Position numbers and translations under genes: made by a program. A stretch of DNA of 64,000 nt from an uncultured Chloroflexia bacterium (GTDB lineage: Bacteria; Chloroflexota; Limnocylindria; QHBO01), in NCBI GenBank assembly GCA_963814375.1, contig CAWFCQ010000008.1, forward strand, positions 224,001-288,000, in the 5' to 3' direction. A model generated the notes under the pieces. It worked only from the letters and a program-made list of their open reading frames with translations. It made no database searches and was not told the DNA's origin. Positions 2,110 through 33,308 of this stretch are shown piece by piece. Position 1 is the stretch's first letter. Each line of letters begins with the position of its first letter.

Positions 2110-2202
2110 GGAGAGGTCGCATAGTGGCCTAGTGCGGCGGTTTGCTAAACCGTTGAAGGGGGTAAACCTCTTCCGAGGGTTCGAATCCCTCCCTCTCCGC
2201 CA
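2110..2202 (+). tRNA. tRNA-Ser(GCT)
   Basis: GGAGAGG/CCTCTCC acceptor, anticodon arm GCGGT-TTGCTAA-ACCGT, long variable arm, TTCGAAT T-loop, encoded CCA. Confidence 0.96.
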
Positions 2203-2227: not shown

Positions 2228-2303
2228 GTGCCCGTAGCTCAGTGGATAGAGCGTCAGGTTGCGGACCTGAAGGTCGGAGGTTCGAGTCCTCTCGGGCACG
2301 CCA
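2228..2303 (+). tRNA. tRNA-Arg(GCG)
   Basis: GTGCCCG/CGGGCAC acceptor, D-loop AGTGGATA with the A20 Arg identity element, anticodon arm TCAGG-TTGCGGA-CCTGA (GCG at 2261-2263), CCA. Confidence 0.95.
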
Positions 2304-5267: not shown

Positions 5268-5358
5268 GGAGCCTCCCGTGTGTGCAGGAAGCGTACCGGG
5301 CCTCTGCTAGACTCGCCCGACTGCCGCCACCGAATCCGTGGGGCCAAGAGGCGGACCG

Positions 5359-5799
5359 ATGAACTACGAACTCTTCATGGCTGAGGCGATTGCCGAAGCC
5401 AGGCGGGGGGCCGGAGAGGGCGAGGAGCCGATTGGCTCGGTCGCAGTCATCGACGATGCCATGATCGCGCGCGACCACGACCGGTCGGCCCTCAGCGAGG
5501 ATCCCACCGCCCATGCCGTGCTGCTGACCCTCCAGGCGGCCGCCCGCAAGCTCGGTCCCCGGCGGCTCTCGGAGGCAACGATCTTCGCCACGCACGAGCC
5601 GTGCGCGATGTGCGTGGGGGCGCTCGTCGAAGCGCAGGTGCGCGCGCTCGTGTTCGCCATCCCGGATCTGGAGCGCGGCGCGGCCGGAAGCGTCGTGCAG
5701 CTGGCCCGCCATCCCGCTCTCGCCCATCAGCTGTCCGTCGTGTCCGGCGTCCGCGAGTCGGAGGCGCGCCGGTTGGCCACCGAGTCCGCATCGGTCTAG
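5359..5799 (+). CDS. tadA: TadA-family tRNA adenosine deaminase homolog lacking the catalytic Glu (HAV)
   Basis: FMAEAIAEA, EEPIGSV, DPTAHAV, THEPCAMCVGAL, GAAGSV; position upstream of ffs-dnaX-ybaB-recR matches Bacillus tadA. Confidence 0.88.
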   Translation: MNYELFMAEAIAEARRGAGEGEEPIGSVAVIDDAMIARDHDRSALSEDPTAHAVLLTLQAAARKLGPRRLSEATIFATHEPCAMCVGALVEAQVRALVFAIPDLERGAAGSVVQLARHPALAHQLSVVSGVRESEARRLATESASV

Positions 5800-5814
5800 A
5801 CTCCCATCGGCCGC

Positions 5815-5904
<90 letters not shown>

Positions 5905-5931: not shown

Positions 5932-6019
5932 GGAGAGGTCGCCTAGAGGCCTAGGGCGCGGCACTGGAAATGCCGTTCGGGGCAACCCGTCGTGGGTTCG
6001 AATCCCACCCTCTCCGCCA
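5932..6019 (+). tRNA. tRNA-Ser(GGA)
   Basis: Anticodon arm CGGCA-CTGGAAA-TGCCG, long variable arm, CCA. Confidence 0.96.
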
Positions 6020-6071: not shown

Positions 6072-6340
6072 GGTCGTGCTAGGCGGGGAACTAGCGGTGC
6101 CCTGTATCCGCAATCCGCTACAGCGGAGCTGAATTCCCGGTCGAGGCCCGCACCGTTCGCCCACCGTCACCGTGCCCGACGTCGAGAGTCGGGTCCCGCG
6201 CAGCGTTGGTCCGCGAACCCCGTCAGATCCGGAAGGAAGCAGCGGTAAGCGATCGCCATCGGGTGCCGCGGGAGAACCTGGCTGGAGCCGGGCGCGTTGG
6301 CGAGTGCGAGCTGGTGCGGTTCGACACCGGGTGCACGACC
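6072..6340 (+). ncRNA. ffs: Large (Alu-domain) bacterial SRP RNA
   Basis: 5' CGTGCTAGGCGGGGAACTAGCGGTGCCCTGTA resembles B. subtilis scRNA; helix 8 TCAGATCCGGAAGGAAGCAGC; termini GGTCGTGC/GCACGACC pair. Confidence 0.93.
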
Positions 6341-6405
6341 TACTCCAATCCCCATCCGCCGCCGGCGGATGGTGGCGTGCGAATCGGTGTACGGTAGCCC
6401 TCCTC

Positions 6406-8041
6406 ATGCCCGCAGCCCAGCCCGTTCCCGTTGTCGAGCCCACGGCGCCGGCCGCACCGCATCGCGCACTGTACCGGCGCTTCCGCGCGCAGCGATTCGC
6501 CGAGCTGGTCGGCCAGGACCCGATCGTCGCCACGCTCCAGCGGGCTGTCAGCGGCGACCGGCTGGCGCACGCCTACCTGTTCGTCGGCCCTCGGGGGACG
6601 GGCAAGACGTCGACGGCTCGAATCCTCGCCAAGGCGATCAACTGCACCAACCTCGGCGCCGACGGCGACCCGTGTGACGCCTGCCCAGCATGCGTCTCGA
6701 TCCGGGACGGACGCGCGCTCGACGTTATCGAGATCGACGCCGCCAGCCATGGCGCGGTCGAGGACGCCCGCGAGCTCGTGATGCGGGCGCTGACCTCGCC
6801 AGCCGAGCTCCGCCGCAGGGTCTACATCATCGACGAGGTTCACATGCTCAGCGCGCACGCTTTCAACGCGTTGCTGAAGCTGATCGAGGAGCCGCCCGAC
6901 CACGTCGTCTTCATCCTGGCCACGACCGATACCCACAAGGTGCCGGCCACGATCATCAGCCGCACCCAGCGCCACGACTTTCGCCGGCTGGCCGATGCGA
7001 CCATCGTCGCCAAGCTGAGCCGCATCGTCGCCGCGGAGGGAGCCGAGGCCGATGACGACGCCCTGGCCCTCGTCGCGCGACTGGCCGACGGCGGCATGCG
7101 AGACGCCGAGTCGATCCTCGACCAGGTGCTCGCCTTCGCCGACGGGCGTCTCACCGCCAACGACGTGCGCGAGGCCGCCGGGCTCGCCGATGACGCCGAC
7201 ATCTCGGCGCTGGTCGACGCCTATCGTCGAGGGCGACGCGCCCGCAGCGCTCGACCGGGTCGCCGGACTGGCGGACGCCGGTCGCGACATGGCCCAGGTA
7301 GCCGCGCAGGCGGAGGGGGAGGCTCGACGACGCCTGCTCGCATCGGCTGGCGATCCGCCGGCGGCGCGACGCCTCGCGACCGTGCTGCGCGCCGTGGCCG
7401 AAGCCGCGGGGGAGGGCGCCCGCGAAGGACGCGCACGCCTGCTGCTCGAGCTGCTGGCCGTCGAGCCGGCCGGTGGCCTGACCGCATCCCCAGCGCCGTC
7501 ACGTCCCGCGGCCGCACCCGCCACCGCAACGGCGGCCGCGCCGGTGGCGGCCAAGCCAGCCGCGCCGGACGTGCCTGCACACCCGGCTGAACCGGAACGC
7601 GCTCCGGCGGAGGAGCCTCTGCCAGAGCCGATCGCATCGGCCATCGACGCGGCGGTGGCAGTCGGCGCCGGTGATATCGAATCGCTGCGGGCGCACTGGG
7701 CCGAGGTGGTCGATCGCGCCAGCCCGGTCATCAAGCCGCTGCTCAAGGAGTGCCGCCCGGTCGCCCGGGACGGCGTTCGGCTGACCCTCGCCTTCCCCGA
7801 AGGTCGCGAGTTCATGCGCTCACGAATCGCACAGCGATCCGGCGCGATCGAGGCGCTGCTGACCGACATGTTCGGCGGCACCTTCGCGATAGAGTGCGTC
7901 GCCACCAACCTCGAGCTCGAGCCTCTGACGGTCGAGCAGGCGGTGGGCACATCACCAGACGACCCGGAGGCACGCGCCCTTCTCGAGGGCGTGCTCAAGA
8001 TCACCGGCGGCGAGCTCGTCGACGCTCCCGAGGTGCGCTGA
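6406..8041 (+). CDS. dnaX: DNA polymerase III subunit gamma/tau; apparent +1 frameshift at about 7222
   Basis: ALYRRFR, GPRGTGKT, zinc Cys cluster, IIDEVHML, SRTQ. Removing the T at 7222 joins ...LVDA to IVEGDAPAALD... and the tau C-terminal domain. Confidence 0.92.
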
Positions 8042-11867: not shown

Positions 11868-11944
11868 GGGCGTTTAGCTCAGCTGGTTAGAGCACTGCCC
11901 TGATAAGGCAGAGGTCTCTGGTTCGAGTCCAGAAACGCCCACCA
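11868..11944 (+). tRNA. tRNA-Ile(GAT)
   Basis: Anticodon arm CTGCC-CTGATAA-GGCAG, GGGCGTT/AACGCCC acceptor, ACCA. Confidence 0.97.
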
Positions 11945-11973
11945 CCTCACCTCCCTCGACCGATGGAGCGCCC

Positions 11974-12774
11974 GTGTCCTCAGACCCGGCCGGCACCGAG
12001 CCGATGACCGACGCGCGCCCGATGGGAGTCCTGGACGCACCGAACGACGGCCGCGCGCTGCACGCGACCATCAACGGCGTCGTCTATGCGCGGCATCCGG
12101 TTCGGACCCATCTCGTCACCGCCGCCGACGACGCCGCGCAGGTGGTCGGTCGCTACGCAGGCGCGCTCGGGGACGACGTGCGCCTTGTCGCGGTCAGCGA
12201 GCGCATGGTCGCGATCACGCAGGGCCGTTCCTATCCGATCGATGAGATCCAGCCGGGGCGGCTGGCGAGGTTCCTCGAGCGGTATGTGACGCGGCCCGGC
12301 TACGGCATCGGCCTGGGATCGGCGCAGACGATGCAGCTGGCGATCGACGAGGTCGGCGCGCCGAGGATCCTTCTGGCCGCCGCGGCATCGGCGGTGACGA
12401 AGCCCTTCGGCGTCCACGGCGTCTTCTACCGCGTGGCAGGACCGCAGGCGAAGGCGATCGACGGCCCGACGTCGTACACCATCCCGCCGTACAACAAGGC
12501 CGCCACGCTCGGGCCGAGCAGGCCCGACGACGCGGCGCGCGGCCTGGCTGCCGCGGTCGGCATTCCGGTTGCGATCATCGACGCCAACGACGCCGGCTGC
12601 GCGGTGCTCGGCGCCAGCCCGGGCGTCGATCGTCGCTTCGTCGCCCGTCTCTTCGCCGACAACCCGCTCGGACAGGCGCGGGAGCAGACCCCCATGTGCG
12701 TCGTGCGCGAGGTCGCCTGGCCGCCAGACCAGGATCTTCCCCCCGAGCCTCGTCGTCGGCTGACCCCACCCTAG
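11974..12774 (+). CDS. CofE-like (F420-0:gamma-glutamyl ligase family) protein
   Basis: PVRTHLV, VAVSERMVAITQGR, GVFYRVAG...AIDG, AIIDAND, DNPLGQ..EQTP; start uncertain (11974 or 12004). Confidence 0.72.
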   Translation: MSSDPAGTEPMTDARPMGVLDAPNDGRALHATINGVVYARHPVRTHLVTAADDAAQVVGRYAGALGDDVRLVAVSERMVAITQGRSYPIDEIQPGRLARFLERYVTRPGYGIGLGSAQTMQLAIDEVGAPRILLAAAASAVTKPFGVHGVFYRVAGPQAKAIDGPTSYTIPPYNKAATLGPSRPDDAARGLAAAVGIPVAIIDANDAGCAVLGASPGVDRRFVARLFADNPLGQAREQTPMCVVREVAWPPDQDLPPEPRRRLTPP

Positions 12775-12785
12775 GCGGTGCATCC

Positions 12786-13646
12786 GTGGCCAGCCCGACT
12801 GCTCGCCAGCTCATCCTGACGCTCTCGTGCCCCGATGGGCGAGGGATCGTGGCGCGAGTCGCGGGCCTCATTGCGGCCGGCGATGGAAACATCATCGACA
12901 GCCACCAGTTCGGCGATCCTGACGCGGGCCGGTTCTTCATGCGAATCCACTTCGACGCCGCCGGGCGGCCGCTGGAGGAGTGGCGCGCCACACTCGCGCC
13001 GCTGGCCGTCGAGCTCGAGATGACGTGGGAGCTCCATGACGTCGCCGTTCGCCCCCGCGTCCTGGTGCTGGTCTCGCGCGAGGGCCACTGCCTTAACGAC
13101 CTCCTCTACCGCTGGCGGACCGGGTCCATCGCCGGCGACGTCGTCGGGGTCGCGTCGCCGTACGCCGACTTCGCTGAGCTGGCGGCTGCCTACGGTGTGC
13201 CCTGGCACACGCTCCCCGGAACTGGCGCCGCGCGGGGCGAGCTCGACCGTGCGCTCCTCGACCTCGTGGACCAGGATGCCGTGGATCTCGTCGTCCTCGC
13301 CCGCTTCATGCAGGTGCTCGGCGACGAGGCGTGTGCCGCACTCGCCGGGAGAGCGATCAACATCCACCACTCGTTCCTGCCGTCGTTCAAGGGGGCCAGG
13401 CCGTATCGCCAGGCGCACGACCGCGGCGTGAAGCTCATCGGTGCCACCGCGCATTACGTGACCGAGGAGCTCGACGAAGGCCCGATCATCGAGCAGGAGG
13501 TGGCGCGGGTCGATCACGCGCACAGCGTCGCCGAGATGGCGCACAACGGCCGTGATGTCGAATGCGTCGCGTTAGCACGCGCGGTTCGCTGGCACGTCGA
13601 GCACCGCGTCCTGCTCCATGGGCGGCGCACCGTCGTCTTTCGCTGA
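12786..13646 (+). CDS. purU: Formyltetrahydrofolate deformylase
   Basis: ACT domain LSCPDGRGIVA, HCLNDLLYR, LARFMQVL, INIHHSFLPSFKGARPY, GATAHYVT, DEGPIIEQ. Confidence 0.96.
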   Translation: MASPTARQLILTLSCPDGRGIVARVAGLIAAGDGNIIDSHQFGDPDAGRFFMRIHFDAAGRPLEEWRATLAPLAVELEMTWELHDVAVRPRVLVLVSREGHCLNDLLYRWRTGSIAGDVVGVASPYADFAELAAAYGVPWHTLPGTGAARGELDRALLDLVDQDAVDLVVLARFMQVLGDEACAALAGRAINIHHSFLPSFKGARPYRQAHDRGVKLIGATAHYVTEELDEGPIIEQEVARVDHAHSVAEMAHNGRDVECVALARAVRWHVEHRVLLHGRRTVVFR

Positions 13647-13654
13647 CCAGCCGC

Positions 13655-14983
13655 TCAGGCCGGGTCGATAACCGAGAACAGCTGCCACGATCCGTCGAAG
13701 CCCTTCAGGGTCCTCCGGCCCACATCGGCGAAGGTGATGCCCGATCCGGCCACGAGGTCGCGCACCGTGCTCGAGACCAGGATCTCGCCCGCAGCCGCCT
13801 CGCCGGCAACTCGCGCGCCGATGTTGACGGCGATGCCGGCGACCTTGTCGCCGAGGACCTCGACCTCGCCGGTGTGCAGGCCGGCCCGCAGCCCGAGGCC
13901 GAGGTCCGCGACACCGGCCATGATGGCCCGCGCGCAGCGGATGGCTCGGGCCGGGCCGTCGAAGGTGGCGAAGAACCCGTCCCCCGCGGTATCCACCTCG
14001 CGACCGTCGAACCGGGTCAGCTCTCGTCGAATCGCTGTGTGATGCTGCTCGAGGAGGTCGCGCCAGCGGCGATCGCCCAGCGACGCCGCCATCTCGCTCG
14101 ACGTCACCAGGTCGGTGAACAGGATCGTCACGAGCACGCGATCGGGGCTGGCGGTCTCGCGCGTGCCGGTGAGGAACTCGCGGATCTCGGCGACGGTCGG
14201 CTCCGGGTCGAACCACGGAACGTGATCGGACCCGGGCAGCTCGACGTAGCGCGCGCCCGGGATGTGGCGTGCCAGGTACCGGCCGTTCTCGACGTGGCAG
14301 ACGCGGTCATCGGCGGCATGGATGACGAGGGTCGGGACGTTGACGGTGGGCACGACATCACGCACGTCGATCTCGAATGCCATGCGCATGAACGCCTCGG
14401 CCGCGCTGGGGGTCGCCGCGTTGAGCTGCACTTTGGCCCGCCAGGCGCGGGCCCACTCGAGGCCATTCACGCTCGGCGCGATCTGCCAGATCCCGGTCCC
14501 GCCACCCCAGCGGCCGGCAAGGCCGGCCATGTTCGCCTCGTGCTCCTCGACGGTGGCCTCGCCCCAGGGCCACTCCTCGTCGGTGCGCTCGCGCACCTCC
14601 CCGCCCTGAAGGATCAGCGCCGACGTGCGCTCCGGATGCGCGGCCGCGAAGAGAAGCGCCAGCGGCCCGCCCTCGGACTCCCCGATGATGGCGGCGCGCT
14701 CGCTGCCGACCGCATCCATGATCGCGCGGATGTCGTCCATCCGATCCTCGAGCGTTGTGGCGCCCGGTACCCGATCCGACATGCCGTACCCGCGTTTGTC
14801 GAAGAGGATGAGCCGGGTGAACTCGGCCAGGCGCTCGCAGTAGTGACGGAAGGCGGGCAGCTCCCAGTACACGTCGAGGTGTGTATACGAGCCCTGCGCG
14901 TAGACGAGATCGATCGGTCCATCCCCCACGACGCGGTACGCCACGTTGACGTCGCCGCTGCGGGCGAAGCGAACCTCGGTCAC
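13655..14983 (-). CDS. Alpha/beta hydrolase fused to an adenylate/guanylate cyclase domain (LipJ-like)
   Basis: FDKRGYGMSD, GESEGG nucleophile elbow, ILFTDLVTS, DTAGDGFFATFDGP, RAGLHTGE, VNIGARV; GTG start at 14983. Confidence 0.92.
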   Translation of the reverse strand: MTEVRFARSGDVNVAYRVVGDGPIDLVYAQGSYTHLDVYWELPAFRHYCERLAEFTRLILFDKRGYGMSDRVPGATTLEDRMDDIRAIMDAVGSERAAIIGESEGGPLALLFAAAHPERTSALILQGGEVRERTDEEWPWGEATVEEHEANMAGLAGRWGGGTGIWQIAPSVNGLEWARAWRAKVQLNAATPSAAEAFMRMAFEIDVRDVVPTVNVPTLVIHAADDRVCHVENGRYLARHIPGARYVELPGSDHVPWFDPEPTVAEIREFLTGTRETASPDRVLVTILFTDLVTSSEMAASLGDRRWRDLLEQHHTAIRRELTRFDGREVDTAGDGFFATFDGPARAIRCARAIMAGVADLGLGLRAGLHTGEVEVLGDKVAGIAVNIGARVAGEAAAGEILVSSTVRDLVAGSGITFADVGRRTLKGFDGSWQLFSVIDPA

Positions 14984-14989
14984 GCGACG

Positions 14990-15018
14990 AGGGTCACGGT
15001 CGCATCGGAGGCTGTCAA
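14990..15018 (-). promoter_or_regulatory. Promoter for the hydrolase-cyclase gene (probably leaderless)
   Basis: TTGACA-17 nt-GACCCT, 6 nt before the GTG. Confidence 0.5.
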
Positions 15019-15049
15019 GGCGCAGACGCGCTGGGCCGGATGCCCCGTT

Positions 15050-15058
15050 TGCTACGAT
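15050..15058 (+). promoter_or_regulatory. Extended -10 promoter (TGcTACGAT) for tRNA-Ala
   Basis: Same motif as before tRNA-Ile, 12 nt before the tRNA. Confidence 0.55.
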
Positions 15059-15070
15059 GGGCGTTCCGGT

Positions 15071-15146
15071 GGGGATGTAGCTCAGCTGGGAGAGCACCTC
15101 CTTTGCAAGGAGGGGGTCAGGGGTTCGAGTCCCCTCATCTCCACCA
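15071..15146 (+). tRNA. tRNA-Ala(TGC)
   Basis: GGGGATG/CATCTCC acceptor with G3:U70, anticodon arm CCTCC-TTTGCAA-GGAGG, CCA. Confidence 0.97.
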
Positions 15147-27241: not shown

Positions 27242-28294
27242 ATGAACCGCATCGTTCAGCTCACGGGTGCCCTCCTGGGCACCCTGTTCGGCTTCGCGCT
27301 GGGGCTGGCCCTCCTTCAGCGTGCCGGCGACCTCATCGAACCGGCCAATCGTCCGGCGTTTCTCACCGCGTTCGTGGTGGCGACGCTGCTGTTCGGCTAC
27401 CTCGCGATCCCGTACGTGACCATCTATCCGGTCCGGCGTGCGGTCGAGAAGCTGTCGGAGGCCGGCGCCGGCGAGTTCGCCCTCGGCGTTGGCGCGATCG
27501 TCGTCGGGCTCCTCATGGGCGTCCTCATCGGTGTGCCCCTCGCTCAGGTCGGAGGCACGCTGGGGTCGCTTGGCCCGCCGGTGGTCGCCATCTTCCTGGC
27601 GGCGATGATGCTCATCATCACGATGTCGAAGCGGGACGTCCTGCTTCCTGCCATCACCGGCATCGTGCCCGGCGTGCGACCGCGTGGGATGACGAACCGC
27701 GTCGTGATCGACACGAGCGCGATCATCGATGGCCGCATCGCCGATATCTCCGCCACCGGCTTCATCCTCGGGACGTTGATCGTGCCGCGGTTCGTGCTCG
27801 ACGAGCTCCAGCGCATCGCCGACTCACCTGACGCGATGCGCCGCAACCGCGGACGCCGCGGCCTCGAGATGCTCTCGGCACTTCAGAAGGACGCCGTCTC
27901 GCCGGTCGAGATCAGCGAGGCCACCTACCCCGAGGTCGCGGAGGTGGATGCAAAGCTGATGGCCTACGCGCGCGACAACGGCGCGGCAATCCTCACCAAC
28001 GACTACAACCTCAACAAGGTCGCGGATCTCCAGGGGATTCGCGTCCTGAACATCAACGAGCTTGCCAACGCCGTGAAGTCGGTGGTGCATCCTGGCGAGG
28101 AGATGAGGGTGCGCATCATCCAGGAGGGCAAGGAGACGGGGCAGGGCGTCGGCTATCTCGACGACGGCACGATGATCGTGGTCGAGGGAGGCGTCCGCTT
28201 CATGGACAAGGAGGTCCCGATCAACGTCACGCGCGTCCTTCAGACGGTCGCGGGGCGGATGATCTTCGCGCAGCCTCGCGGCGAGGCGGAGTGA
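27242..28294 (+). CDS. Membrane PIN/TRAM-domain protein (YacL-like)
   Basis: 4 TM segments, DTSAIIDGRI, RGRRGL, TNDYNLNKVA, QGVGYLDDGTMIVVE. Confidence 0.93.
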   Translation: MNRIVQLTGALLGTLFGFALGLALLQRAGDLIEPANRPAFLTAFVVATLLFGYLAIPYVTIYPVRRAVEKLSEAGAGEFALGVGAIVVGLLMGVLIGVPLAQVGGTLGSLGPPVVAIFLAAMMLIITMSKRDVLLPAITGIVPGVRPRGMTNRVVIDTSAIIDGRIADISATGFILGTLIVPRFVLDELQRIADSPDAMRRNRGRRGLEMLSALQKDAVSPVEISEATYPEVAEVDAKLMAYARDNGAAILTNDYNLNKVADLQGIRVLNINELANAVKSVVHPGEEMRVRIIQEGKETGQGVGYLDDGTMIVVEGGVRFMDKEVPINVTRVLQTVAGRMIFAQPRGEAE

Positions 28295-28310: not shown

Positions 28311-29510
28311 ATGAGCGGCTCATACGCGGCGATTCTTGTTGCGGCCGGGCGGAGCACGCGGATGGGCAGCGACAAGCTGTGGGCGGACCTGTGGGGACGC
28401 CCGACCTGGCGCTGGAGCCTCGACACGCTGCTCGCAGCGGCCGAGCTCGAGCGACTCGCGATCGCGGTTCCACCTGAACAGCTTCAACGGTTCACCGACG
28501 CGCTCCCGCCCTCGGCCGATCGATGCCTCGTCGTGGCTGGCGGCGAGGGGCGAGCCGACTCGGTGATCGCGGGCCTATCCGCGTTGAGCGCGGCCGGCCT
28601 GGCGGACGACACCCTCGTGCTCGTCCACGACGCTGCGCGTCCCGCCCTTACGCCAGAGCTCGTCGCGAGCGTCGCCGATGCGGCTGCGGCGTTCGACGGA
28701 GCGGTCGTCCCCGTCATCCCGGTCGTCGACTCCCTCAAGCGGGTACGGAACGAGCGCGTCGTTGCCCCGGTCGAGCGCGACGAGGTCGCGGCCGCGCAGA
28801 CGCCCCAGGCCGCGCGCCTCGGTGCCCTGCGGGCGGCGATCGAGGAGGCGCATGCGTGGGGCCGGCCGATCACCGACGATGGCGGAGCCCTTGCCGCTGC
28901 CGGGGTGCCGGTGCGGGTGGTCGCCGGCGACCCGGCCAACCGCAAGCTGACCGACCCGGCCGATCTCGTGACGATGCGTGCCGCGCTCGCGATGCGCGCT
29001 ACCGGCCTCGTGGCGGGGGCGCAGGCCGAAGCGGGCCACCGCGTCGGGATCGGCTTCGACGCTCACCGCCTGGTCGCTGGTCGGCCGATGGTCATCGGCG
29101 GCGTTGCCTTCACCGATGAGGCGCGGGGCCCCGAGGGCCACTCGGACGGCGACGCCGCGCTGCACGCCCTGATCGACGCGCTGCTCGGCGCGGTCGCGCT
29201 CGGTGACGTCGGAACGCTCTTCCCGGCCGGCGAGGCCTGGGCCGGAGCCGACTCGGCGGACCTCACCTCGCACGCGGTGCGGCGCCTGGCCGAGGGGGGA
29301 TGGCGCCCGTTCAGCGCGGCGCTCAGCGTCGTGATTCGCCGACCGGCGATCGCTCCGCGCCGCGACGACATCGCGGAGCGCATGGCCGCTCTGCTCGGGA
29401 TCGAGGCCGGCGCGGTCTCCGTCACGGGCACCACGTCCGACGGCCTCGGTTTCGCCGGTGAGGAGGGTCTTGCAGCCTGGGCCGTGACAACGGTCGAGCC
29501 GATCGCGTGA
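28311..29510 (+). CDS. ispDF: Bifunctional IspD/IspF (MEP pathway)
   Basis: AAGRSTRMG, VHDAARP, QTPQ, ITDD; then RVGIGFDAHRL, GHSDGD, GDVG. Confidence 0.93.
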   Translation: MSGSYAAILVAAGRSTRMGSDKLWADLWGRPTWRWSLDTLLAAAELERLAIAVPPEQLQRFTDALPPSADRCLVVAGGEGRADSVIAGLSALSAAGLADDTLVLVHDAARPALTPELVASVADAAAAFDGAVVPVIPVVDSLKRVRNERVVAPVERDEVAAAQTPQAARLGALRAAIEEAHAWGRPITDDGGALAAAGVPVRVVAGDPANRKLTDPADLVTMRAALAMRATGLVAGAQAEAGHRVGIGFDAHRLVAGRPMVIGGVAFTDEARGPEGHSDGDAALHALIDALLGAVALGDVGTLFPAGEAWAGADSADLTSHAVRRLAEGGWRPFSAALSVVIRRPAIAPRRDDIAERMAALLGIEAGAVSVTGTTSDGLGFAGEEGLAAWAVTTVEPIA

Positions 29511-32637: not shown

Positions 32638-33254
32638 CCGACGACATCCAGCAGGAGACCCTGAACGAGGCGCGCGAAGCCGCGCGGCTCTCCCGTGAGG
32701 CACCGCGGCCGGGCGAGATGCCGGCCGGCGACGCGAAGCAGTGGTACGTGATCCACACCTACTCGGGCTACGAGAACAAGGTGAAGGCAAATCTCGAGCA
32801 CCGCATCGAGTCGATGGGCGTGGAGGACCAGATCTTCCAGGTCCTCGTCCCGATGGAGGAGGAGATCGAGATCCGCAACGGCCAGCGCCAGACGGTGAAC
32901 CGCAAGGTGTTCCCGGGCTACGTGCTGGTCGAGATGGCGATGAGCGACGAGTCGTGGTACGTCGTGCGCAACACGCCGGGCGTGACCAGCTTCGTCGGCT
33001 CGGGCAACCGCCCGCTGCCGCTGGACGAGACCGAGGTCAAGAAGATCCTCAAGCAGATGGGGGTCGAGACGCCGAAGTTCAAGGTCCAGTACTCCAAGGG
33101 CCAGAGCGTCCGGGTCAAGGACGGGCCGTTCGCCGAGTTCATCGGCACCGTGGACGAAGTCAACCCGGAGAAGAACAAGGTCAAGGTGCTCGTCAGCATC
33201 TTCGGCCGCGAGACACCCGTCGAGCTCGACTTCCTTCAGATCGAGAAGCTCTAG
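32634..33254 (+). CDS. nusG: Transcription factor NusG
   Basis: [26 protein letters not shown] domain [16 protein letters not shown]. Confidence 0.98.
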
Positions 33255-33308
33255 CAACCGAGACCGATACGGCGCCGATCGGGTCGACCGGGGCGCCGCC
33301 AGCAACGA

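What the first reader, a model, noticed from the sequence alone, without database searches (positions are those of the whole stretch)
5359..5799. Syntenic TadA with an ADAT3/Tad3-like Glu-to-Val substitution (HAV): a retained, probably non-catalytic tRNA deaminase
Seen: the motif reads DPTAHAV (GTG at 5518-5520) instead of DPTAHAE. The zinc ligands (His, PCAMC) are intact, and the ORF is full length with an SD-like GAGG and an upstream TGcTAGACT box (5305-5313). The usual GxN motif reads DHD and DxK reads DLE. Known: the HAE Glu is the catalytic proton shuttle of CDA-fold deaminases, and Val at this position marks the non-catalytic eukaryotic ADAT3/Tad3 subunit. The position before ffs-dnaX-ybaB-recR matches Bacillus tadA. 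Inference: this is an orthologous pseudo-enzyme, either kept for a new role (RNA binding, or the partner of an active deaminase in an ADAT2/3-like heterodimer) or caught in early decay after its substrate disappeared (see the tRNA-Arg finding).
Basis: partly seen in the sequence, partly recalled or inferred. Interest (0 to 1): 0.85.

Follow-up and report, generated by a model that had tools for sequence, protein, structure and literature searches.

The report
Dead TadA kept after inosine loss
A soil Chloroflexota lineage stopped using wobble inosine to read arginine codons, yet has kept its tRNA deaminase gene, with the catalytic glutamate replaced by valine, under purifying selection, so the protein probably now does something other than editing.

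Summary
Window 5359-5799(+) encodes a 146-aa TadA orthologue that reads DPTAHAV (GTG 5518-5520) and keeps its zinc ligands.

It is neither a sequencing error nor decay. All 25 orthologues from relatives in families f1 and f3 and 76 of 76 further Limnocylindria loci carry Val. That Val is written GTC 45, GTG 36 and GTT 3 times among 84 distinct genes. dN/dS is about 0.20, against 0.17 for neighbouring recR and 0.23 for ybaB.

The substrate is gone. The genome has tRNA-Arg(GCG) and no A34 tRNA. In 250 genomes of the class, HAV travels with GCG (f1, f3), HAE with ACG (f2, f5), and GCG without any TadA occurs in f4 and in three f2 genomes.

Seven other residues nearly invariant in HAE relatives also changed. 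The fold and the predicted homodimer are kept.

No HAE-type TadA partner exists in this assembly, so an ADAT2/3-like heterodimer is unsupported.

Best reading: a selected, non-catalytic pseudo-deaminase. Its actual role is inferred, not shown. A second, independent HAV lineage exists among Rhodothermus-like TadAs.

The parts
5359..5799 (+). tadA orthologue with HAV (146 aa plus stop): CDA fold, zinc ligands H52, C82 and C85 kept, catalytic Glu replaced by Val54
5518..5520 (+). GTG codon for Val54, at the position of the proton-shuttle Glu (E. coli Glu59)
   Evidence: The alignment to E. coli-numbered TadA chains runs without gaps at offset +5. Val is invariant in 84 distinct orthologues, encoded GTC 45, GTG 36, GTT 3.
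5305..5313 (+). TGCTAGACT, an extended -10-like box conserved upstream of tadA in relatives (probable promoter)
   Evidence: Not called by the scanner. Function is inferred.
5348..5351 (+). GAGG Shine-Dalgarno-like sequence, 7 nt before the ATG
   Evidence: AGAGGCGGACCGATG recurs in orthologues.
2228..2303 (+). tRNA-Arg(GCG), in the place held by tRNA-Arg(ACG) in HAE-bearing relatives. It is the replacement for TadA's substrate.
   Evidence: (70.6 bits)
2110..2202 (+). tRNA-Ser(GCT), the conserved partner just upstream of the tRNA-Arg gene
5815..5904 (+). tRNA-Ser(CGA), 15 nt after the tadA stop. A TAGACT box overlaps the tadA stop codon.
5932..6019 (+). tRNA-Ser(GGA)
6074..6338 (+). SRP RNA (ffs), part of the conserved tadA-ffs-dnaX-ybaB-recR context
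   Evidence: 177 bits
8409..9020 (+). recR, the neighbour used as the dN/dS comparator

Best explanation
This is the true orthologue of tadA in a Limnocylindria (Chloroflexota) genome whose lineage gave up wobble inosine. In the ancestor of families f1 and f3, and probably f4, the tRNA-Arg(ACG) gene became tRNA-Arg(GCG). CGA and CGG are read by tRNA-Arg(UCG) and tRNA-Arg(CCG). TadA then had no A34 substrate. Elsewhere in the class the gene was lost at that point (f4 and three f2 genomes). In f1 and f3 it was kept, but with the proton-shuttle Glu replaced by Val and with TadA's anticodon-loop contacts replaced (E. coli N46, the Arg matching S. aureus R94, the N-H pair near S. aureus N123, and F148/F149). 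Fold, zinc ligands, the pocket-lining DPTAHAV and GAAGS segments and the homodimer interface were retained. Purifying selection has been as strong as on recR and ybaB. Shown: orthology, the substitution, its conservation, purifying selection, absence of the substrate tRNA, and absence of an active TadA partner in this assembly. Inferred: that the protein cannot deaminate, and that it now acts as a zinc-holding homodimer that binds an RNA or nucleotide ligand in its conserved pocket without chemistry, making it a bacterial, partner-less counterpart of eukaryotic ADAT3. Its target is unknown.
For: Orthology and synteny. L152 has Ser(GCT)-Arg(ACG)-tadA(HAE)-Ser(CGA)-Ser(GGA). HAV is universal in the clade: 25 of 25 f1/f3 orthologues, 76 of 76 Limnocylindria loci, and the DPTAHAV pattern in f1 75/83 and f3 62/73 with reversed-pattern control 0. 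The 2 f2 hits are out-of-frame chance matches. Selection: median dN/dS is 0.04-0.29 over 3486 pairs of 84 distinct genes. On the same 45 loci tadA is 0.20, recR 0.17 and ybaB 0.23. Val54 is encoded GTC 45, GTG 36 and GTT 3 times. Twenty-five columns are invariant, including D48, P49, H52, A53, V54, E80, P81, C82, C85 and G107. Substrate gone: no A34 tRNA in G000. The GCG tRNA pattern is found in f1 75/83, f3 66/73 and f4 10/10. The ACG pattern is found in f1 0/83, in f3 2/73 (both not tRNA-like), in f2 57/82 and in f5 2/2. Relatives carry tRNA-Arg(UCG): 19 of 20 fetched places. CGA makes up 10% of Arg codons. Loss where GCG arose elsewhere: TadA HMM 0 of 5 f4 genomes that are 91-93% complete. 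The f2 genomes with GCG (G027, G074, G238) give only 41-47 bits, against 129-141 bits in ACG-bearing G029 and G039. Residues at least 85% conserved in 89 HAE relatives but changed in 15 HAV rows: N41, E54, Y76, R93, N122, H123, F143, F144. Roles of these residues: passages of PMC3711424. Fold: pLDDT 93.9, and Foldseek top hit B. subtilis TadA 7cph, TMq 0.92. Homodimer: score 0.77, best of 3 controls 0.00. The mark was reached by 20 of 30 proteins solved as pairs of one chain and 1 of 23 solved as single chains. The runs agree in at least 95% of contacts and partner pLDDT is at least 93. This may reflect memory of solved TadA dimers. Glu is essential: E59A is used as the inactivating mutation of E. 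coli TadA (PMC6506237). ADAT3 has Val at this site with zinc kept and anticodon pockets lost (PMC8216470).
Against: No activity, expression or binding data exist. The strict conservation of the zinc site and pocket lining is also what an active enzyme would show. The canonical RNA contacts are altered, which weakens 'RNA binding' as the specific role. Core pI (median 5.2-5.4, against 5.9 for HAE relatives) gives no sign of a basic RNA surface. f4 does without the protein, so whatever it does is dispensable in small genomes. G000 is only 89% complete, so a partner deaminase or an A34 tRNA could lie in the missing part. Two of 83 f1 genomes hold a canonical TadA as well (G210, G073). I read these as foreign contigs, but only G210 has a test behind that reading. 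NG86 dN/dS is crude at 70% GC with dS near 0.8.
Confidence: 0.7

Rival explanations
1. It is still an enzyme. The zinc site works with another proton shuttle, or on another substrate such as a free base, a nucleotide or another RNA position, so HAV marks a change of chemistry or target rather than loss of catalysis.
For: Zinc ligands and the whole DPTAHAV and PCAMC segments are invariant in 84 orthologues, and the loop R38-x-H40-x-R42 and G107-A-A-G are at least 90% conserved. Purifying selection is strong. G000 has no other CDA-fold gene for base salvage.
Against: No conserved acidic residue replaces the Glu. The neighbouring position 41 varies among D, Q and E. E59A abolishes TadA editing (PMC6506237). 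ADAT3, with the same Val, also keeps its zinc and is inactive (PMC8216470).
Confidence: 0.1
2. It is the non-catalytic half of an ADAT2/3-like heterodimer with an active deaminase encoded elsewhere in the genome.
For: The same Glu-to-Val change defines ADAT3/Tad3. A dimer interface is predicted to be intact. Many relatives carry a second CDA-fold gene.
Against: G000 has a single match to the protein at E<=10 and a single PF00383 match. In genus-g1 relatives, 4 of 4 second hits that lie elsewhere in the genome are cytosine deaminase, with the G017 copy checked against PDB at 1.9e-49. A fifth, next to tadA in G010, is another paralogue scoring 37 bits on the TadA model. HAE hits examined in f1 and f3 are guanine deaminase or other paralogues scoring 37-76 bits on the TadA model. 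No A34 tRNA exists for such a complex to edit.
Confidence: 0.05
3. It is a relic in slow decay: a gene made useless by the anticodon change and not yet lost.
For: The substrate tRNA is gone. Several TadA hallmark residues have drifted. f4 and three f2 genomes lost the gene outright.
Against: dN/dS is about 0.2, equal to recR and ybaB. Of 101 orthologous loci, 94 could be read from start to stop, giving 84 distinct ORFs of 142-173 aa. The other 7 were left out because the match did not begin at residue 1 or no stop was reached, so they were not tested for truncation. Val54 and the zinc ligands are invariant with synonymous codon turnover. The gene persists across two families that are only 51-62% identical in this protein.
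Confidence: 0.03
4. The ORF is kept only because its DNA carries signals for neighbouring genes: the promoter of tRNA-Ser(CGA), or a leader of the tRNA/ffs cluster.
For: A TAGACT box overlaps the tadA stop, 15 nt before tRNA-Ser(CGA).
Against: Constraint is at the amino-acid level along the whole ORF: low dN with high dS, and synonymous turnover at invariant residues. The box lies at the extreme 3' end only, and in many relatives it sits outside the ORF.
Confidence: 0.02

Closest known systems
Bacterial TadA (tRNA adenosine-34 deaminase; solved for B. subtilis 7cph, S. aureus 2b3j, E. coli 1z3a)
   Same: Orthologous position before ffs-dnaX-ybaB-recR. Same fold (TMq 0.90-0.92). Gap-free alignment over about 135 residues. 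Zinc ligands H, C, C. TadA-like predicted homodimer.
   Different: The HAE Glu is Val. N46, the Arg matching S. aureus R94, the N-H pair and F148/F149 are replaced. There is no tRNA-Arg(ACG) in the genome. It scores 116.6 bits on the TadA model with cut-off 150, but the class's own HAE orthologues also score only 128-141, so the cut-off does not discriminate.
Eukaryotic ADAT3/Tad3, the inactive subunit of the ADAT2/ADAT3 wobble deaminase
   Same: Val at the proton-shuttle Glu position, zinc ligands kept, anticodon-loop recognition determinants lost, and retention under selection (PMC8216470 passages; PMC3239186 table).
   Different: It has no N-terminal tRNA-binding domain (146 aa, one domain). 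No active ADAT2-like partner was found. It is predicted to be a homodimer of two dead subunits. No C-terminal capping of the zinc is predicted, since the model ends in a helix at 133-145. It arose independently within bacteria.
TadA-less decoding of CGN codons in Mollicutes (Yokobori et al. 2013, PMC3711424)
   Same: [quoted passage not shown] That paper proposes that weakening mutations in tadA come before its loss (abstract, passages and section 12 read).
   Different: This is a free-living, 70% GC, 2.5 Mb soil lineage, not a reduced AT-rich parasite. tRNA-Arg(CCG) is kept. The mutated tadA is not a transient step but has been held by purifying selection across two families.

Membership tests
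TadA (tRNA adenosine-34 deaminase) | H-A-E catalytic motif with the proton-shuttle Glu | tested here: not met
   H52-A53-V54. Val in all 84 distinct orthologues. Glu in 89 of 89 HAE relatives at that column.
TadA (tRNA adenosine-34 deaminase) | Zinc ligands His plus PCxxC on a CDA fold | tested here: met
   H52, C82 and C85 are invariant. Pfam PF00383 and PF14437. Foldseek TadA chains at TMq about 0.9.
TadA (tRNA adenosine-34 deaminase) | A substrate tRNA with A34, tRNA-Arg(ACG), in the same genome | tested here: not met
   No anticodon begins with A among 61 aragorn calls in G000. The ACG pattern is found in 0 of 83 f1 genomes. The assembly is 89% complete.
TadA (tRNA adenosine-34 deaminase) | TadA-specific anticodon-loop contacts: Asn before the HAE helix, Arg matching S. 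aureus R94, Lys of DxK, Phe-Phe of the C-terminal helix | tested here: not met
   N41 becomes D/Q/E, R93 is variable, F143 and F144 become A or S, and K becomes E or D at position 105. R69 and D103 are mostly kept. The roles of these residues are taken from PMC3711424.
TadA (tRNA adenosine-34 deaminase) | Orthology by position (tRNA cluster, ffs, dnaX, ybaB, recR) | tested here: met
   L152 shows the same order with HAE and tRNA-Arg(ACG).
TadA (tRNA adenosine-34 deaminase) | Score above the NCBIfam equivalog cut-off (NF008113, 150 bits) | tested here: inconclusive
   116.6 bits. HAE orthologues of the same class also fall below the cut-off at 128-141 bits.
TadA (tRNA adenosine-34 deaminase) | A-to-I activity on tRNA | not testable with these tools
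   Needs an enzyme assay or tRNA sequencing.
ADAT3/Tad3-type pseudo-deaminase | Glu of HxE replaced (Val) with zinc ligands kept | tested here: met
   The definition is taken from PMC3239186 and PMC8216470.
ADAT3/Tad3-type pseudo-deaminase | Obligate heterodimer with an active ADAT2/TadA-like subunit | tested here: not met
   G000 has a single CDA-fold gene. Paralogues examined in relatives are not TadA.
ADAT3/Tad3-type pseudo-deaminase | Extra N-terminal tRNA-binding domain | tested here: not met
   146 aa with a single domain covering residues 2-140.
ADAT3/Tad3-type pseudo-deaminase | Zinc pocket capped by the protein's own C-terminus | tested here: inconclusive
   The AlphaFold2 model ends in a helix at 133-145, with pLDDT 76 for the last block. 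No coordinates were inspected.

The most novel reading that the evidence does not exclude
A bacterial, partner-less analogue of ADAT3. After its lineage switched tRNA-Arg from A34 to G34, TadA was converted from a writer into a non-catalytic zinc-pocket binder. It may be a reader of the G34 anticodon loop (guanine is 2-amino-hypoxanthine, so it resembles the product) or of another RNA hairpin or nucleotide, with a new selected role in translation or RNA metabolism. The same Glu-to-Val route was taken independently by eukaryotic ADAT3 and by a Rhodothermus-like bacterial lineage (6 of 120 relatives). That would make Val a repeatable way to turn this fold into a binder.
Probability: 0.2. Interest if true: 0.85.

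Novelty: new variant of a known kind. Interest (0 to 1): 0.72.

Why it matters
TadA is treated as an ancestral bacterial enzyme and is essential in E. coli, and its loss has been documented mainly in reduced Mollicutes. This case shows a large, free-living, GC-rich soil clade (Limnocylindria families f1, f3 and f4) that abandoned wobble inosine for arginine. It also offers a natural experiment inside one class: where tRNA-Arg became GCG, tadA was either deleted or kept as a Glu-to-Val form under purifying selection.

That gives a tractable bacterial model for how a nucleic-acid deaminase becomes a pseudo-enzyme, the step that produced ADAT3 in eukaryotes. It points to an unknown second role for the TadA fold.

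There is a practical consequence too. Public pipelines name these proteins 'tRNA(adenine34) deaminase', so surveys that score tadA presence will wrongly infer I34 in this clade.

My four paper searches on this theme listed no report of a Glu-to-Val TadA in bacteria or of the tRNA-Arg switch in Chloroflexota. One review states that Thermotogae and Spirochaetes carry tRNA-Arg(GCG) (PMC8007984, passage read; not checked here).

Tried and rejected
No habitat or expression claim is therefore made.

5' UTR hairpin (window 5327-5341, CCACCGAATCCGTGG): RNAalifold on 34 leaders gave 0 pairs. These 34 were picked by eye from the 48 leaders, as those that showed the motif or a variant of it. A hand-drawn 6-pair helix was 78.8% paired, but covariation was no better than shuffles (51/500 for percent paired and 113/500 for covariation score). 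It is not claimed as a structure.

Charge as a proxy for RNA binding: core pI is 5.2-5.4 for HAV and 5.9 for HAE. The difference is too small to use.

NCBIfam cut-off as a membership test: it does not discriminate.

Second HAV lineage: the metagenome scan with P0166 returned 80 loci, all HAE, with best identity 59%. Its tRNA-Arg state could not be read.

tRNA-Arg(UCG) in G000: it was not found intact. Three 5' halves on contig C5 were examined. There were no Rfam hits, no Pfam family for the three adjacent about 400-aa ORFs, and those ORFs are not homologous to one another. This remains unexplained.

Aragorn's second tRNA-Arg(gcg), on C3, looks like a false call.

In one search a fourth comparator (the dnaX N-terminus) found 0 orthologues, because my coordinates were off, and the script stopped there. 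The three other genes had already printed.

In one search my regex mistyped the motif. It was replaced by alignment-based typing.

One row, P0021, has an odd residue at the column and was dropped before the tree.

The class tallies are pattern matches, not gene calls. The tRNA patterns have non-zero reversed controls, and some hits are not tRNA-like. Of the 10 f1 DPTAHAE hits I examined 7; G106, G115 and G121 were not examined. Of the 11 f3 hits I examined 4.

Unpublished genomes flagged by the tool are inside these tallies: G006; G109, G144, G178, G266 (f1); G089, G113, G128, G133, G256 (f2).

Supplementary files were not opened; Yokobori's supplementary tRNA tables might list further GCG bacteria.
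Full report
WHAT IS THERE.

Window 5359-5799(+) is an intact ORF of 146 codons. It reads DPTAHAV, with GTG at 5518-5520 as codon 54. PCAMC lies at 81-85, DHD at 39-41 and DLE at 103-105. GAGG sits 7 nt before the ATG, and TGCTAGACT lies at 5305-5313.

Pfam places the protein in the CDA-fold deaminases, and the best NCBIfam model is TadA (116.6 bits). It aligns without gaps to solved TadA chains. In E. coli numbering, query residue n equals residue n+5, so V54 sits on Glu59, H52 on His57, and C82/C85 on Cys87/Cys90.

An AlphaFold2 model built on 84 orthologues has pLDDT 93.9. Its nearest solved folds are TadA from B. subtilis, S. aureus, A. aeolicus and E. coli, at TMq 0.90-0.92.

Downstream lie tRNA-Ser(CGA), tRNA-Ser(GGA), SRP RNA, dnaX, ybaB and recR. 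This is the classic tadA neighbourhood.

WHOSE GENOME.

The window is C8:224001-288000 of a 2.52 Mb assembly in 8 contigs, at 70% GC, 89% complete and 4.5% contaminated. Record titles of the closest loci name MAGs of Chloroflexota, 'Candidatus Limnocylindria'.

THE SUBSTRATE IS GONE.

Aragorn on the whole assembly finds tRNA-Arg with anticodons GCG, CCG, CCT and TCT, and no tRNA of any kind with A at position 34. A second 'GCG' call on C3 does not look like a tRNA.

The real tRNA-Arg(GCG) lies in the window at 2228-2303, right after tRNA-Ser(GCT). In relatives with a normal TadA, a tRNA-Arg(ACG) sits in that same pair. In L152 the order is Ser(GCT), Arg(ACG), tadA(HAE), Ser(CGA), Ser(GGA).

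CGA makes up about 10% of arginine codons in 615 long ORFs of G000. Relatives read it with tRNA-Arg(UCG): 19 of 20 places fetched from genus g1 and family f3 genomes. G000 itself has no intact copy in its assembled part.

THE VAL IS OLD AND SELECTED.

All 25 orthologues from 24 relatives plus G000 in families f1 and f3 read HAV. The 5 from families f2 and f5 read HAE.

Of 80 loci returned from the species-representative genomes, 76 are Limnocylindria-type and all 76 read HAV. In the 46 of these whose flank holds a tRNA-Arg, it is GCG every time.

Eighty-four distinct orthologous genes are 142-173 codons long. These are the 94 of 101 loci that could be read from start to stop; the other 7 were left out and so were not tested for truncation.

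Val54 is invariant but encoded GTC 45, GTG 36 and GTT 3 times. The zinc ligands also show synonymous turnover.

Nei-Gojobori dN/dS has medians of 0.04 to 0.29 across dS bins, over 3486 pairs. On the same 45 loci, tadA gives 0.20, recR 0.17 and ybaB 0.23. This excludes a sequencing error and excludes neutral decay.

CLASS-WIDE PATTERN.

The sample was 250 genomes drawn evenly from the class, plus G000.

- The DPTAHAV coding pattern is found in f1 75/83, f3 62/73, f2 2/82, f4 0/10 and f5 0/2, with no hit of the reversed control. The two f2 hits are chance matches in unrelated frames.
- DPTAHAE is found in f2 56/82, f5 2/2, f1 10/83, f3 11/73 and f4 0/10.
- A tRNA pattern with anticodon GCG is found in f1 75/83, f3 66/73, f4 10/10, f2 9/82 and f5 0/2.
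- The same pattern with ACG is found in f1 0/83, f3 2/73 (neither tRNA-like), f4 0/10, f2 57/82 and f5 2/2.

The HAE hits inside f1 and f3 are mostly other deaminases. Of 11 examined:

- 4 are guanine-deaminase-like (G112, G158, G028, G183). G112 was checked against PDB and hit 1wkq at 7.5e-39.
- 4 are other CDA paralogues (G045, G193, G030, G157). The two I scored, G045 and G193, reach 75 and 59 bits on the TadA model.
- 1 is spurious.
- 2 are canonical TadA (G210 contig C6 at 149 bits; G073 contig C60 at 174 bits).

The G210 contig carries a second dnaX/recR only 70-74% identical in DNA to G000's, so I read it as foreign. For G073's 7.6 kb contig that is only a guess.

WHERE GCG AROSE WITHOUT HAV, TadA IS MISSING.

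None of 5 f4 genomes (1.0-1.4 Mb, 91-93% complete) has any match to the TadA model. The three f2 genomes with a tRNA-like GCG gene (G027, G074, G238) have only weak paralogue-level matches of 41-47 bits. Their ACG-bearing relatives G039 and G029, from the same genera, score 141 and 129 bits.

Within one class, therefore, the A34-to-G34 switch is followed either by deletion of tadA or by its retention as HAV. This parallels the Mollicutes, where tadA was lost and tRNA-Arg(ACG) gave way to GCG plus UCG (PMC3711424: abstract, passages and section 12 read).

WHAT ELSE CHANGED IN THE PROTEIN.

A search of 1.84 billion representatives gave 10,955 relatives. Among the best 150, a regex found 116 HAE, 26 HAV, 6 fragments without the motif and 2 misreads.

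In an alignment of 105 near-full-length rows (89 HAE, 15 HAV, 1 odd), several residues that are 85-100% conserved in the HAE set differ in the HAV set:

- N41 (99% in HAE) becomes D, Q or E.
- E54 (100%) becomes V.
- Y76 becomes F.
- R93 (97%) becomes variable.
- N122/H123 (85% and 93%) are lost.
- F143/F144 (89% and 92%) become A or S.

By the S. aureus TadA-RNA structure as summarised in PMC3711424, several of these sit in or next to anticodon-loop contacts: the Arg matching R94, N123, and the Phe of the C-terminal helix. R69 (S. aureus R70) and D103 (S. aureus D104) are mostly kept.

The HAV set has conserved residues of its own: MNYEL at the N-terminus, A29, A34, M35, V94, Q114, A116 and V128. 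In the 84-gene alignment, the pocket-lining segments D48-V54, E80-C85 and G107-G110, and the R38-x-H40-x-R42 loop, are invariant or at least 90% conserved.

On a tree with the motif column removed, 14 of 15 HAV rows form one clade (SH-aLRT 99). The fifteenth, P0037, sits among HAE proteins.

PARTNER OR NO PARTNER.

G000 has one match to the protein at E<=10 and one PF00383 match, and both are this gene. In relatives of genus g1, 4 of 4 second hits that lie elsewhere in the genome are yeast-type cytosine deaminase (the G017 copy hits PDB 1ysb at 1.9e-49). A fifth, beside tadA in G010, is another paralogue scoring 37 bits on the TadA model.

A homodimer is predicted with a TadA-like interface. 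The score is 0.77 against a best of 3 controls of 0.00. The mark was reached by 20 of 30 proteins solved as pairs of one chain and by 1 of 23 solved as single chains. The runs agree in at least 95% of contacts, and partner pLDDT is at least 93. Because TadA dimers are solved, this pass shows likeness, not binding.

HOW IT MOST LIKELY WORKS.

Shown: this is an orthologue of tadA without the proton-shuttle Glu, without its tRNA substrate and without an active partner in this assembly, held by purifying selection across two families.

From established knowledge: the Glu is required. E59A is the standard inactivating mutation of E. coli TadA (PMC6506237 passages). ADAT3 carries Val at this site, keeps its zinc, has lost the anticodon pockets and is inactive (PMC8216470 passages).

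Inferred: the protein no longer edits. The strict conservation of the zinc pocket lining, together with the changed RNA contacts, suggests a binder with a new ligand, acting as a homodimer. I cannot name the ligand. An RNA hairpin or a nucleotide are the obvious candidates.

f4's loss of the gene shows that the role is dispensable in streamlined genomes.

RIVALS.

- A still-active enzyme with another shuttle is possible but lacks a conserved acidic substitute.
- A heterodimer lacks a partner.
- Decay is contradicted by dN/dS.
- Constraint from overlapping DNA signals cannot explain amino-acid-level selection.

COMPARISON AND NOVELTY.

It works most like ADAT3: the same substitution, kept zinc and lost determinants. 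It fails two of ADAT3's defining features, the partner and the N-terminal domain. It is an orthologue of TadA but fails the catalytic motif, the substrate and the contact residues. I therefore file it as a new variant: a bacterial, homodimeric TadA-derived pseudo-deaminase.

Four literature searches listed no such case. Databases label the protein 'tRNA(adenine34) deaminase'.

A SECOND CASE.

Relatives of P0037 include 6 HAV proteins among 120 (112 HAE by regex; 2 more are HAE by eye). They lie within a group whose named members are Rhodothermus, Longibacter and Rubricoccaceae TadA. One of them, P0166, still scores 159 bits on the TadA model, and most keep the Asn, Lys and Phe contacts, so that event looks younger. 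Their contigs could not be fetched.

LIMITS.

There are no reads, no expression data and no biochemistry. The genomes are MAGs. The class tallies are pattern matches and include some unpublished genomes, listed under Tried and rejected. dN/dS is by a simple counting method at high GC.

Noticed in passing
G000 contig C5 (outside the window): 27897-27935, 29371-29409, 33227-33265, minus strand (L198 5898-5936, 7372-7410, 11228-11266): There are three exact copies of the first 39 nt of tRNA-Arg(UCG), running through the anticodon loop. Each has a similar upstream leader and is followed by a conserved non-tRNA stretch of about 70 nt. No 3' half and no intact tRNA-Arg(UCG) was found in G000. Relative G016 has one such chimeric unit as well as an intact tRNA. 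There are no Rfam hits, and the neighbouring about 400-aa ORFs are unrelated to one another. Possibilities are att-site remnants, a tRNA-derived small RNA, or an assembly effect. It remains unexplained.
   Followed up: partly
window about 6448-8041 (+), dnaX: The N-terminal and C-terminal parts of dnaX lie in different reading frames in this window (ORFs 6172-7590 and 7052-8041). In 5 of 8 relatives compared they are in one frame. Another long-contig MAG (L105) also shows a shift, L137 matched only a distant C-terminal piece in the same frame, and L140 gave no C-terminal match. This is probably an indel error of the assembly rather than a broken essential gene.
   Followed up: partly
window 5303-5313 and 5797-5804; same box in L002-L151: CTGCTAGACTC recurs upstream of tadA at variable distance, and a TAGACT box also sits about 10 nt before tRNA-Ser(CGA). 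In G000 that second box overlaps the tadA stop codon. It is likely the lineage's -10 promoter element.
   Followed up: partly
window 5327-5341 (+): CCACCGAATCCGTGG in the tadA leader recurs with variants in many genus-g1 relatives and can form a short hairpin. Covariation does not support a structure.
   Followed up: yes
proteins P0037, P0166, P0168, P0173, P0177, P0194: A second, independent Glu-to-Val (HAV) TadA lineage sits among Rhodothermus-like TadAs and keeps most other TadA hallmarks. It is known only from short assembled contigs, so its tRNA-Arg anticodon is unknown.
   Followed up: partly
window 11944-15071 (+): The rRNA operon is interrupted. About 3.1 kb with protein-sized ORFs (for example 11974-12774) lies between tRNA-Ile(GAT), after the 16S gene, and tRNA-Ala(TGC), before the 23S gene.
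   Followed up: no
G000 whole assembly: There is no other PF00383 (CDA-fold) gene. No RibD deaminase domain or cytosine or guanine deaminase was found in the assembled 89%, although many relatives carry cytosine or guanine deaminase.
   Followed up: partly
G000 contigs C4 (about 430-438 kb) and C8 (about 548-556 kb); C2 and C5: The same tRNA cluster (Leu, Leu, Val, Phe, Gly, Gln, Cys, Leu) appears at the ends of two contigs, and the Ala(GGC)/Ala(CGC) pair appears on two contigs. The cause may be duplicated regions, a second strain or an assembly artefact.
   Followed up: no
G210 contig C6 (L223) and G073 contig C60 (L224): Two family-f1 MAGs also hold a canonical HAE TadA. G210's lies beside a second dnaX/recR only 70-74% identical in DNA to G000's, so the bin seems to mix two related organisms.
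   Followed up: partly
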